Positions 16,051-27,428 of a DNA stretch of 64,000 bases are shown here, piece after piece. The stretch lies in the NCBI GenBank assembly GCA_964016885.1, contig OZ024745.1, forward strand, positions 77,686,001-77,750,000, read 5' to 3'. This DNA is from Eledone cirrhosa. Lineage: Eukaryota. Position 1 is the stretch's first letter. The number at the start of each line of letters is the position of its first letter. Made by a program: the position numbers and the translations under genes. The notes beneath the pieces are model-generated. The model was not told the origin of the DNA. It was given only the letters and a program-made list of their open reading frames with translations, and searched no databases.

Positions 16051-16220
16051 TACATATACATATACACAAGTGCGCATGCGCACGCATACACACACACACA
16101 CACATTCATATATATATATATACACTGTATATATATATATATATATATATATATGTATATATATATATATATATATATATATATATATATATATATATAT
16201 ATATATATATATATATATAT

Positions 16221-17738
16221 ATTAAGATAAGCAGAACAAGTAAAATTCAATCAATTTTTCAAAATACATTAAAAAATATAATATAAATATTTACCTCTTC
16301 TAGTGGCCCTTACTGATCAGTTTCGCTTTGTAAAACCTCATAAATCCGATGGATTCATGATGGAAAACCAAAGCTCATCAGAGAAGCATTTTCCCATCCT
16401 AGGGCTAAACGTCCCAGGAACGACAAAATATACAACCTCCTGCCAGCTAATAAAGGTCTGAAAGGTCGTAAAAGTGACCCGTATGTAAACTGGACCGAAG
16501 TAAAAGCGGGAAAATCAAAGACTTGCTGTCTACAATTACTACTAAAGAAATAGCAGCCTAGTAAAGCAACAGATTTGTTCTCAACGGACGGAGAAAAAGG
16601 TATAAGTTAATATGTCCAGGGATACTAGGTACCCCTAGAAATACATAGGTTGTCTATGATTCAGGGTTGTTCAATGGTGTTAATTTGATACACCAGAACT
16701 TTAATATTAAGATAAGCAGAACAAGTAAAATTCAATCAATTTTTCAAAATACATTAAAAAATATAATATAAATATTTACCTCTTCTAGTGGCCCTTACTG
16801 ATCAGTTTCGCTTTGTAAAACCTCATAAATCCGATGGATTCATGATGGAAAACCAAAGCTCATCAGAGAAGCATTTTCCCATCCTAGGGCTAAACGTCCC
16901 AGGAACGACAAAATATACAACCTCCTGCCAGCTAATAAAGGTCTGAAAGGTCGTAAAAGTGACCCGTATGTAAACTGGACCGAAGTAAAAGCGGGAAAAT
17001 CAAAGACTTGCTGTCTACAATTACTACTAAAGAAATAGCAGCCTAGTAAAGCAACAGATTTGTTCTCAACGGACGGAGAAAAAGGTATAAGTTAATATGT
17101 CCAGGGATACTAGGTACCCCTAGAAATACATAGGTTGTCTATGATTCAGGGTTGTTCAATGGTGTTAATTTGATACACCAGAACTTTAATATTAAGATAA
17201 GCAGAACAAGTAAAATTCAATCAATTTTTCAAAATACATTAAAAAATATAATATAAATATTTACCTCTTCTAGTGGCCCTTACTGATCAGTTTCGCTTTG
17301 TAAAACCTCATAAATCCGATGGATTCATGATGGAAAACCAAAGCTCATCAGAGAAGCATTTTCCCATCCTAGGGCTAAACGTCCCAGGAACGACAAAATA
17401 TACAACCTCCTGCCAGCTAATAAAGGTCTGAAAGGTCGTAAAAGTGACCCGTATGTAAACTGGACCGAAGTAAAAGCGGGAAAATCAAAGACTTGCTGTC
17501 TACAATTACTACTAAAGAAATAGCAGCCTAGTAAAGCAACAGATTTGTTCTCAACGGACGGAGAAAAAGGTATAAGTTAATATGTCCAGGGATACTAGGT
17601 ACCCCTAGAAATACATAGGTTGTCTATGATTCAGGGTTGTTCAATGGTGTTAATTTGATACACCAGAACTTTAATATTAAGATAAGCAGAACAAGTAAAA
17701 TTCAATCAATTTTTCAAAATACATTAAAAAATATAATA
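16221..17738 (-). repeat. 485-bp tandem array (~3.1 apparently identical units), one HHR per unit; retrozyme-like
   Basis: Units start at 16221, 16706, 17191 and 17676. No ORF; flanked by (TA)n. Confidence 0.92.
16306..16387 (-). ncRNA. Type I hammerhead ribozyme (also at 16791-16872 and 17276-17357)
   Basis: TTCT-CTGATGA-GCTTTG...TCATGAATCC ATC GGATTTATGA...CAAAGC-GAAA-CTGATCAG-TA-AGGG; palindromic stem III ACTGATCAGT. Confidence 0.8.
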
Positions 17739-18342
17739 TATATATGTATATATATATATATGTATATATATATATATATATATATATATATATATATATA
17801 TATATATATATATATATGTATATATATATATATATGTATATATATATATATATATATATATGTATATATATATATATATATATATGTATATATATATATA
17901 TATATATATATATATATATATATATGTATATATATATATATATATATATATATGTATATATATATATATATATATATGTATATATATATATATATATATA
18001 TATATATATATATATATGTATATATATATATATATATATATATATATATATATATATATATATATATATATATATATATATATATATGTATATATATATG
18101 TATATATATATGTATATATATATGTATATATATATGTATATATATATATATATATATATATATATATATATATATATATATATATATGTATATATATATG
18201 TATATATATATATATATGTATATATATATATATATATATATATATATATATGTATATATATATATATATATATATATATATATATATATATATATATATA
18301 TATATGTATATATATATATATGTATATATATATATATATATA

Positions 18343-24978: not shown

Positions 24979-25965
24979 TATATATATATGTATATATATA
25001 TATATATATATATATATATATATATATATATATATATATATATATATATATATATATGTATATATATATATATGTATATATATATATATATGTATGTATA
25101 TATATATATGTATGTATATATATATATGTATGTATATATAAATATGTATATATATATATATGTATATATATTTATATGTATATATATATATATATGTATA
25201 TATATATATATATATGTATATATATATATGTATATATATGTATATATATATATATATATATATATATAGTATATATATATATATATATGTATATATATAT
25301 GTATATATATATATATATATGTATATATATATATATATATATGTATATATGTATATATATATGTATATATATATGTATATATATATATATATATGTATAT
25401 ATATATATATATATATATATATATATATATATATGTATATATATATATATATATGTATATATATATATATATGTATATATATATATATATATTTATATAT
25501 ATATATATGTATATATATATATATATATATATATGTATATATATATATATATATATGTATATATATATATATATATATGTATATATATATATATATATAT
25601 GTATATATATATATATATATGTATGTATATATGTATATGTATATATGTATATATATATATATATATATATATGTATATATATATATATATATATATGGTG
25701 TCTTCTTCATATGCATGGAGCGCTTGTCTGCACAATACTGAAGTTGCGTTTCGCTAATTTCTACCCGCCGAAATGCGATTCTCGCTAAATTTATATATGT
25801 ATACATATATATATATATATATATATATATGTATATATATATATATATATGTATATATATATGTATATATATGTATATATATATGTATATATATATGTAT
25901 ATATATATATATATATATATATATATATGTATATATATATATATATATATATATATGTATATATA
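24979..25965. repeat. (TA)n-derived microsatellite, interrupted at 25697-25795
   Basis: Direct reading. Confidence 0.9.
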
Positions 25966-27428
25966 TATAAATTTAGCGAGAATCGCATTTCGGCGGGTAG
26001 AAATTAGCGAAACGCAACTTCAGTATTGTGCAGACAAGCGCTCCATGCATATGAAGAAGACACCAGAGCTATAAACATAAGTTAAAATGGTCATACACGC
26101 TGAGACGGTGGTTAAGAAGCCATTAACCACCTCAGCCAAAAGAGCGAACAAGCTAAACGGGTCAAACAAATTGAGATATAATTGAAATAGTTACCCGGAC
26201 CCTCGGGGAAGATGGAATACTTCGAAATTGGCTTTCTTGAACACCTAAATCAATAATACTGTCTGCTTATAAAAATAAGCTTTTGGTATAATGATCGAAC
26301 AAGGCATCGCTTTCTCAACAGGTTTTTGTTCTTCTTGCGCCGGAATCTCTCAGGTTGTGAAAGCACATGTGAGATTCTAAGGGGAGAAAACCCCTATTTG
26401 GGCCAGTGAATTCAGCATGTGTAGTTATTACAAAGATTTGCAAAAGCCGCACAAAACGAATAAGCTCTCTACCGAGTTGTTTTTAAAATAAACTTAATCG
26501 ATTAATCAGTCAATAGAATTAACTAAAAAGCCAAACAAATTAACTGGTTAATCCCTTGACTTGGGAGATTAATACAAATATAAATTTAGCGAGAATCGCA
26601 TTTCGGCGGGTAGGAAATAGCGAAATGCAACTTCAGTATTGTGCAGACAATATCGCTTATCAAAAGATTGGAAATTCAGAGAATTTCTAATGGAAAGAAT
26701 CAGCTCTTCAGACAGCTATTTCCATACCACAGGGCACAAAAGCCTTCTGGTAGTAAATATATTGCTTTCTGCCCAGCGAAACCGTCGGTTACAGCACTTG
26801 AACAGGTGAATATTTAAATCGTATTTTAATTCATTTAAAAGATTGTTTAATGTTTACTTGTTCCGCTCATTTTTATAATTCTGGTATCTCAAATTAGTAC
26901 CATTGAATAACCACTGTTATAGACACCATATATATTTCCGTGGGTACTTAGTACCTACTGGATATTTATATAATTTATTTGTATTCTCCTCTTATGTAGA
27001 GAAAAAATTGTTGTATCATGCTGCTATTTCTAGTAACATGAAATTTCAACAAGTCTATAATTCCCGCTTTTTCCTAACGGCCTATTTATGTGTAGGTCAC
27101 TTTAACGGTCTGACCTCATACATTGGGCAGAAAGCAATATATTTACTACCACAAGGCTTTTGTGCCCTGTGGTATGGAAATAGCTGTCTGAAGAGCTGAT
27201 TCTTTCCATTGGAAATTCTCTGAATTTCCAATCTTTTGATAAGCGAAATCGTCGGTCACAGCACTAGAACAGGTGAATATTTAAATCGTATTTTAATTTA
27301 TTTAAAAGATTGTTTAATGTTTACTTGTTCCGCTTATTTTTATAATTCTGGTAACTCAAATTAGTACCACTGTTATAGACACCATATATATTTCCGTGGG
27401 TAGTTAGTACCTACTGGAATATTTATAT
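25697..27428. mobile_element. Rearranged non-coding HHR-bearing element (PLE pseudo-LTR or retrozyme-like)
   Basis: 25697-25795 is inverted at 25965-26064, with a third copy at 26578-26650. 26654-26775 is inverted at 27123-27246. 26775-26970 is repeated at 27242-27428. Confidence 0.7.
27183..27262 (+). ncRNA. Type I hammerhead ribozyme
   Basis: GCTGT-CTGAAGA-GCT...ATTGGAAATTC TCT GAATTTCCAAT...AGC-GAAA-TCGTCGG-TC-ACAGC. Confidence 0.8.

What the first reader, a model, noticed from the sequence alone, without database searches (positions are those of the whole stretch)
16100..27428. (TA)n-targeted cluster of ribozyme elements: autonomous PLEs with non-coding HHR parasites
Seen: four different HHR-bearing non-coding insertions (16221, 18343, 19511, 25697) lie within one expanded TA tract. 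The well-delimited PLEs elsewhere in the window (3268, 4877, 6643, 46795, 52866) are also bounded by (TA)n, and most show 5' inversions. About ten distinct HHR sequences occur in 64 kb. Inference: PLE GIY-YIG/RT machinery targets TA microsatellites and mobilises several ribozyme RNAs in trans, possibly expanding the TA tracts in the process.
Basis: partly seen in the sequence, partly recalled or inferred. Interest (0 to 1): 0.75.

Follow-up and report, generated by a model that had tools for sequence, protein, structure and literature searches.

The report
Penelope and retrozyme pile-up in TA
Six young mobile-element insertions from five families sit in one long TA microsatellite, and the ribozyme-bearing non-coding families among them have the same two-ended, back-to-back layout as Penelope-like retrotransposons, so Penelope enzymes likely copy them, an idea already proposed in print.

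Summary
The TA targeting is real. The 3' ends of all five families abut (TA)n at 21/22, 21/22, 28/30, 26/30 and 23/26 genomic loci, against 5% of background positions and 2/30 for a control SINE.

The inventory needs correcting. There are six insertions, not four. Three are non-coding hammerhead retrozymes (485, 310 and 467 nt; two are sister families). The one at 18343 is the truncated end of an autonomous Neptune-type PLE. The one at 25697 is a 613-nt tandem element with no conserved hammerhead.

The 310-nt family shows a PLE footprint. 44 of 47 complete insertions are head-to-head, and each has one arm ending at each of two fixed sites 26 nt apart. The arms share one unit haplotype and are not mirror copies. 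This fits published PLE biochemistry and favours priming from both sides of a break, likely on an RNA circle.

Large TA expansion by insertion is not supported. No RNA evidence was obtained and no partner PLE was identified. TA bias and the PLE-retrozyme link are published, and this scan noted the same two-armed pattern elsewhere in this genome.

The parts
16108..16221 (.). TA tract T0
16222..17730 (-). Family A retrozyme: 3.1 tandem copies of a 485-nt unit, type I hammerhead in each (cores at 16381, 16866, 17351), fixed 3' end on the left, no inverted arm here
   Evidence: 606 exact-motif hits in the genome; fold z -6.3
17731..18345 (.). TA tract T1, 615 bp, 21 G and no C on the + strand
18346..18703 (+). 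Family B: 5'-truncated 3' end (pLTR) of an autonomous Neptune-type PLE. Inverted arm 18346-18491, main arm 18492-18703; the arms end about 62 nt apart. Minimal hammerhead with a U3/A8 core (UUGAAAA)
   Evidence: (11,632 hits); core in 29 of 30 loci
18704..19510 (.). TA tract T2, 807 bp, 46 G and no C, between two tail-to-tail 3' ends
19511..23846 (-). Family C retrozyme, left arm: 14 copies of a 310-nt unit with a hammerhead, ending at unit position 310
   Evidence: 4,584 exact cores; 1,436 such termini; fold z -4.4
23848..24985 (+). Family C retrozyme, right arm: 3.7 inverted copies, ending at unit position 284
24978..25696 (.). TA tract T3, 719 bp
25697..25798 (+). Family D, short 3' fragment, identical over 102 nt to the 3' end of the main D copy and tail-to-tail with it
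25790..25970 (.). TA tract T4, 181 bp, between the two D 3' ends
25970..26650 (-). Family D main copy: 1.1 units of a 613-nt non-coding tandem element with a fixed 3' end; no conserved hammerhead, tRNA or Rfam family found
   Evidence: (443 hits)
26646..27430 (+). Family E retrozyme, 467-nt unit, sister of A (66-75% identical). Inverted arm 26646-26775, cut short at the junction with D; main arm 26775-27430; hammerhead 27188-27257
   Evidence: (80 hits)
27446..27575 (-). Truncated SINE-like repeat just outside the cluster, used as the control (the SINE label is my inference)
   Evidence: (19,836 hits)
3270..4722 (-). Truncated PLE with hammerhead (3418), endonuclease remnant and 107-bp inversion; TA tract on the left only
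4877..6578 (-). Truncated PLE, TA on both sides, short inversion; its hammerhead-like motif failed both scans
6643..11438 (-). PLE with two pLTRs, an inversion, hammerheads at 6891 and 11085 and an interrupted ORF
46797..48561 (+). PLE RT + GIY-YIG remnant, 64% DNA identity to the parent of family B; follows (AC)55; no inversion or hammerhead found
52866..54841 (-). Truncated PLE, TA on both sides, 310-bp inversion, hammerhead at 53126/54636

Best explanation
The cluster is a long TA microsatellite holding six young insertions from five TA-targeting families, and its three hammerhead retrozymes were likely written in by Penelope-like (PLE) enzymes acting in trans. Shown: the TA bias, the family anatomy, the head-to-head layout, the two fixed termini, the shared haplotype of the two arms, and open PLE frames in the genome. 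Inferred mechanism: a PLE GIY-YIG endonuclease cuts both strands in (TA)n. Each DNA end primes reverse transcription at one of two fixed internal sites of the RNA (26 nt apart in C, about 62 in B, 84 in E), helped by a few AT bases of microhomology. The two cDNAs grow towards each other for independent lengths and are joined head to head; if only one is completed, a plain tandem results. For C the template is most likely one monomer read round repeatedly (a hammerhead-made circle); a uniform linear multimer is the alternative. The tract lengthened mainly by local slippage, and insertion would add at most a short target duplication. Family D uses the same target but never shows twin arms, so its driver is open.
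For: TA at 3' ends: A 21/22, B 21/22, D 26/30, E 23/26, control SINE 2/30; C 28/30; background 2004/39840 positions, 5.0%. C: 44 of 47 complete insertions head-to-head, and 44 of 44 with one end at unit position 310 and the other at about 284. Arm lengths are uncorrelated (rho 0.007), either arm can be the longer (25 vs 19), and both arms are at least 1.5 units in 32 of 44. Ten unit haplotypes occur in 28 arrays, with no arm-specific majority variant in 27 of 28; 0 of 13 rare variants are mirrored across the junction. The autonomous family B has the same layout (16/22 head-to-head, two termini) and 16 frames of 775 aa among 150 scored matches. In vitro, a PLE cuts and extends both strands and starts at two internal sites that bound the genomic 'tail' (PMC11167929). 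(TA)n bias of Neptune, Hydra and Naiad PLEs is published (PMC8557442).
Against: No sequence homology between A, C, D or E and the five PLE untranslated regions tested, so no partner is identified. A and E are head-to-head in only 3/22 and 6/26 loci (one more each), and D in 0/30. No RNA, cleavage or circle was observed. 40 of the 50 C stretches were chosen by the position-310 terminus, so only their other end is informative; among the 10 chosen by the hammerhead core, 8 of 9 complete ones were head-to-head. Samples are the first exact-pattern hits along the largest contigs, which favours young copies. A few variants are shared by 2-7 units in 3 arrays, as local duplication would give. Assembly polishing could homogenise units. 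TA flanks of C are somewhat longer than background (median sum 97.5 vs 66 bp).
Confidence: 0.75

Rival explanations
1. PLE-type insertion delivered short arms, and the tandem arrays grew afterwards in place by unequal crossover or slippage, the model discussed by Li, Clavereau and Pollet 2026.
For: It also predicts a shared haplotype in both arms. Variants shared by 2 units occur in L036 and L037 and by 7 of 10 units in L228. Discussion of 10.64898/2026.07.22.740005.
Against: Most minor variants are single-unit (28 singletons in 265 units). Arrays of up to 27-29 units are 98-100% identical to the reference unit, which leaves little time for stepwise growth. It does not by itself explain the two fixed termini.
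Confidence: 0.2
2. The PLE reverse transcriptase itself lengthens the TA tracts, telomerase-like, during insertion.
For: The summed TA flanks of 44 C insertions have a median of 97.5 bp against 66 bp for length-weighted background tracts (p 0.008, but the background is pseudo-replicated). The window's tracts total 2,436 bp, while the longest strict tract in 200 kb of background is 255 bp.
Against: Insertions L039, L040 and L241 have short TA flanks on one or both sides, and L034 has none but a roughly 14-nt target duplication. Tracts T1-T4 carry 115 G and 1 C on the + strand whatever the orientation of the neighbouring element, and 4 of 5 long interrupted background tracts are equally polar, as local slippage gives.
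Confidence: 0.12
3. Another TA-targeting retrotransposon drives some families, family D above all: a Naiad PLE (no hammerhead, TA bias) or a Dong/R4 LINE (its microsatellite targeting is recalled; my paper search found nothing on it).
For: D has no hammerhead, one fixed end and 0/30 head-to-head copies. Naiads lack hammerheads and target (TA)n (PMC8557442). Dong-R4 is listed among recent LINEs in one mollusc genome paper (PMC13282606).
Against: No coding element carrying D's 3' motif was found in 1.33 Mb of fetched loci. For C and E the twin-terminus layout matches the PLE family B.
Confidence: 0.15
4. The arrays and inversions are largely assembly artefacts of long-read consensus in TA-rich DNA.
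For: Units are near-identical, TA tracts are error-prone, and unit counts were not checked against raw reads.
Against: The same polarity and the same two termini recur at 44 independent loci with 10 locus-specific haplotypes. Contigs of run X2 show the unit joined to TA.
Confidence: 0.03

Closest known systems
Metazoan non-LTR retrozymes (Cervera and de la Pena 2020, PMC7229834; passages read)
   Same: Non-coding, low-GC tandem units with a type I hammerhead in each unit, from dimers to large multimers, co-existing with PLEs, which the paper names as candidate mobilisers.
   Different: That paper's text has no 'inverted' or 'microsatellite'. Here C arrays are head-to-head with two fixed termini in (TA)n. 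A and E units (485, 467 nt) exceed its 170-400 nt range. Circular RNA is not shown here.
Li, Clavereau and Pollet 2026 preprint, 10.64898/2026.07.22.740005 (abstract, introduction, part of methods, discussion and passages read)
   Same: Retrozymes as non-autonomous clients of PLE machinery.
   Different: It argues from co-occurrence and pLTR phylogeny, mainly in vertebrates, and invokes local amplification. Here the evidence is insertion geometry, and no pLTR homology was found for A, C or E.
Neptune-type and Hydra PLEs (Craig et al. 2021, PMC8557442; passages read)
   Same: TA-microsatellite bias, pLTRs, inverted 5'-truncated copies and a tail at one end. [quoted passage not shown]
   Different: Tails are given as 30-40 bp there, and are 26, about 62 and 84 nt here. 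Clade placement is by motif only; no tree was built.
Poseidon PLE of Anolis, PAc (Frangieh et al. 2024, PMC11167929; main text read)
   Same: Both strands are cut and extended, with two internal initiation sites bounding the tail; the hammerhead is not needed for insertion in vitro.
   Different: PAc initiation sites are not homologous to the cut DNA, whereas termini here carry 2-8 nt of AT microhomology. Trans-mobilisation and multimeric cDNA were not reported in the text read.

Membership tests
Non-LTR retrozyme (A, C, E) | Type I hammerhead core with stems I-III in each unit | tested here: met
   A core in 25 of 30 loci. E second half matched a tight pattern in 16 of 30 loci; the other 14 were not examined. 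Rfam did not detect them.
Non-LTR retrozyme (A, C, E) | Short non-coding tandem unit, dispersed at many loci | tested here: met
   no PLE frame continuous with the unit in the loci examined.
Non-LTR retrozyme (A, C, E) | Expressed as linear and circular RNA | tested here: inconclusive
   No RNA holder listed. The closed 310-nt contigs in three runs come with the control SINE in DNA-like proportion.
Non-LTR retrozyme (A, C, E) | Self-cleavage in vitro | not testable with these tools
   Needs a transcription assay.
Non-LTR retrozyme (D) | Type I hammerhead in the unit | tested here: not met
   No hit in two scans; CTGAAG in 0 of 30 other loci; no Rfam ribozyme. D is not filed as a retrozyme.
Non-LTR retrozyme (B) | Non-autonomous, non-coding unit | tested here: not met
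   It is the 3' end of a 775-aa RT+GIY-YIG element in 4 of 4 full copies fetched.
EN+ Penelope-like element (B parent) | Single ORF with RT and C-terminal GIY-YIG | tested here: met
   RVT_1 E 1.3e-6 (28.7 bits, just under the 29.6 cut-off) and GIY-YIG E 2.9e-6.
EN+ Penelope-like element (B parent) | pLTR, inverted 5'-truncated copies, tail | tested here: met
   Upstream pLTR in 2 of 4 full copies; 16/22 head-to-head with two termini.
Neptune clade | CX2-5CxxC linker upstream of GIY-YIG | tested here: met
   CX4CXXC is visible in the frame; motif definition from PMC8557442. Nematis has it too.
Neptune clade | RT phylogenetic placement | not tested
   No reference PLE proteins were at hand.

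The most novel reading that the evidence does not exclude
A PLE enzyme pair grips one small ribozyme-made RNA circle and copies it round and round from both ends of a double-strand cut in (TA)n, starting at two fixed sites, so that multimeric back-to-back arrays of up to about 30 units are made in a single event. Each array would then be a readable record of PLE twin priming, processivity and error rate. Beside it, family D would be a second class of TA-targeted tandem passenger with no known ribozyme and one-ended insertion.
Probability: 0.45. Interest if true: 0.7.

Novelty: new variant of a known kind. Interest (0 to 1): 0.5.

Why it matters
How PLEs make their tandem and inverted insertions, and which enzyme moves animal retrozymes, are named as open questions in the papers read (PMC8557442, PMC7229834). 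The 310-nt family offers about 1,400 young insertions with two exactly defined start sites, and the genome holds open PLE frames, so trans-mobilisation and rolling-circle copying can be tested in vitro. The TA bias itself and the PLE-retrozyme link are not new, and the cluster is a hot spot of a genome-wide process, not a special locus.

Tried and rejected
Rfam scans gave only microRNA-like noise from TA repeats and palindromes and no hammerhead among the rows shown (where 14 of 164 rows were not shown). A DNA search of the genome with the 310-nt unit returned nothing because common words are skipped; exact patterns were used instead.

RNA: no RNA holder listed. Three runs with other organism labels hold the 310-nt unit as one closed contig at depth 10-15. 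I rejected this as evidence of a circular RNA or of host range, because the control SINE is present in the same runs at roughly 5-25 times that depth, near its ratio in the high-depth run X2.

Fold-back copying of the first arm was rejected for C: 0 of 13 rare variants mirrored, and either arm can be the longer. For D, no tRNA; by-eye checks for HDV-like and twister motifs (recalled consensus) found none; consensus folding gave little covariation (term +2.3 kcal/mol). The search for an autonomous partner by D's 3' end in 1.33 Mb, and for A, C, D and E against five PLE untranslated regions, found none. The control SINE's other end was not used, because my reference copy is truncated. A paper search for Dong/Rex6 TA targeting found nothing. 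Empty-site alleles were not tested.
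Full report
What is there. From 16108 to 27430 five TA tracts (2,436 bp) alternate with six insertions. A scan for type I hammerheads with stems I-III found 26 cores in the window against 0-1 in 20 Markov controls. A relaxed scan added two sequences (controls 0-1 in 12), giving 9 distinct hammerhead-like sequences in 64 kb, one of them weak. Rfam found none among the rows shown. The window lies on contig C5 of a 3.0-Gb assembly; no call names the host.

The families. 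A (16222-17730) is 3.1 copies of a 485-nt unit, and E (26646-27430) is a 467-nt sister family, 66-75% identical. C (19511-24985) is 14 copies of a 310-nt unit followed by 3.7 inverted copies. All three are non-coding, carry a hammerhead and are dispersed: 606, 80 and 4,584 exact-motif hits, and 1,436 C termini (lower bounds). A and C monomers fold better than all 100 shuffles (z -6.3 and -4.4).

B (18346-18703; 11,632 hits) is not a parasite. In L073 it runs upstream into a GIY-YIG frame. That peptide lies in 775-aa open frames in 16 of 150 scored matches. One such frame has RT and GIY-YIG, and B follows the frame in 4 of 4 copies fetched. Its core reads UUGAAAA in 29 of 30 loci. This changes both positions 3 and 8, which PMC11167929 shows to interact (a double mutant partly rescues cleavage); activity of this variant is inferred.

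D (25697-25798 and 25970-26650; 443 hits) is a 613-nt tandem unit with one fixed end. Its hammerhead-like CTGAAG is absent from 30 other loci, 23 of them comparable. No tRNA or Rfam family was found, and it folds only modestly (z -2.3).

TA targeting. I scored (TA)5 within 15 nt of the 3' end. Background is 2004 of 39,840 positions in twenty 10-kb stretches, 5.0%. The families give A 21/22, B 21/22, D 26/30, E 23/26 (8, 8, 0 and 4 loci dropped as second hits on the same insertion) and C 28/30. A SINE-like control gives 2/30. The samples are the first exact hits in contig order, so they favour young copies.

The PLE footprint. Fifty stretches round C arrays gave 51 blocks; 4 were dropped (3 cut by an edge, 1 running into N). 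Of 47 complete insertions 44 are head-to-head, and all 44 have one end at unit position 310 and the other at about 284. Forty stretches were chosen by the 310 terminus; of the ten chosen by the core, 8 of 9 complete ones were head-to-head. The window's array follows the rule. B has the same layout (16/22; termini about 62 nt apart). E shows it in 6/26 (termini 84 nt apart), A in 3/22 and D in 0/30. Inverted 5'-truncated copies with a tail at one end are the described PLE signature (PMC8557442, passages). A purified PLE cuts and extends both strands and starts at two internal sites that bound the tail (PMC11167929, main text).

Template. In 28 C arrays with whole units in both arms (265 units), ten haplotypes occur. 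27 arrays have no arm-specific majority variant; 28 variants are single-unit; 0 of 13 rare variants are mirrored across the junction. Arm lengths are uncorrelated, and either arm can be the longer. So the second arm is not a fold-back copy, and both arms come from one sequence variant. A circle read repeatedly from both DNA ends is the simplest reading. A uniform linear multimer, or later local amplification (the model in 10.64898/2026.07.22.740005, discussion), is not excluded: three arrays have variants shared by 2-7 units, and polishing may hide variation.

TA expansion. Summed flanks of C insertions are longer than length-weighted background (median 97.5 vs 66 bp). But several insertions have only a few TA units, and L034, in a non-TA site, shows a roughly 14-nt target duplication. 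Tracts T1-T4 carry 115 G and 1 C on the + strand whatever the neighbour's orientation, and 4 of 5 long interrupted background tracts are equally polar. Local slippage explains the long tract; insertion would add little.

Not obtained. No RNA holder was listed. Closed 310-nt contigs in three runs came with the control SINE in DNA-like proportion and were set aside. No partner PLE was found by sequence. Empty alleles were not examined.

Comparison with what is known. TA bias of Neptune, Hydra and Naiad PLEs is published. Retrozymes and their proposed PLE dependence are published (PMC7229834, passages; the 2026 preprint). I did not find the two-armed, two-terminus layout of retrozyme arrays in those texts: 'inverted' occurs 0 times in the first and once, in a reference, in the second. 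Four paper searches listed nothing closer. The preprint's supplements are closed and those of the other papers were not read, so they may bear on this. Earlier notes of this scan describe the same pattern, including for the 310-nt family, elsewhere in this genome. I had reached the reading before that look-up, and the notes are not independent support.

Verdict. A real hot spot of a genome-wide, TA-directed PLE process, with a clean and testable footprint on its retrozyme passengers. Two of the four named parasites were misread, and the expansion idea is weak. New variant of a known kind; interest 0.5.

Noticed in passing
window 25697-26650: The two D pieces are tail-to-tail across a 181-bp TA tract and identical over 102 nt, including a variant seen in none of 30 other loci. 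One similar pair appears among 100 listed hits (G000:C1:300530594-300530703). This geometry is the opposite of the PLE head-to-head layout and is unexplained.
   Followed up: partly
window 26646: E's inverted arm stops about 90 nt short of its usual terminus and is fused directly to the 5' end of D with no TA tract; likely a target-site deletion when D inserted.
   Followed up: partly
window 2905-2960: A short chimera joins the first 20 nt of the 3270 element to the sequence that precedes the TA tract at 4833, as if an allele or duplicate lacked most of that element.
   Followed up: no
window 39680-39717 and 44329-44372: Two further hammerhead-like cores. The second lies at the end of a PLE endonuclease remnant (44663-44323) but on the opposite strand.
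   Followed up: no
window 50760-50903 and 52703-52820: Short unassigned repeats that recur beside TA tracts at many fetched loci, probably ends of further TA-targeting families.
   Followed up: no
window 3009-3148, 45789-46115, 50144-50535, 27850-28278: Older imperfect palindromes, likely decayed head-to-head insertions or MITE-like elements.
   Followed up: no
L113:1501-2091 and L127:1532-2128: A second D subfamily about 70% identical to the window copy, with a nearly invariant 3' terminal 35 nt (partly by choice of the search pattern).
   Followed up: partly
window 57360-58662: A 1.3-kb purine-rich minisatellite with a 9-bp period.
   Followed up: no
window 14076-15290, 59485-60521, 61539-63516: Remnants of other LINE-like elements, one interrupted by a (TA)15 tract at 14238.
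   Followed up: no
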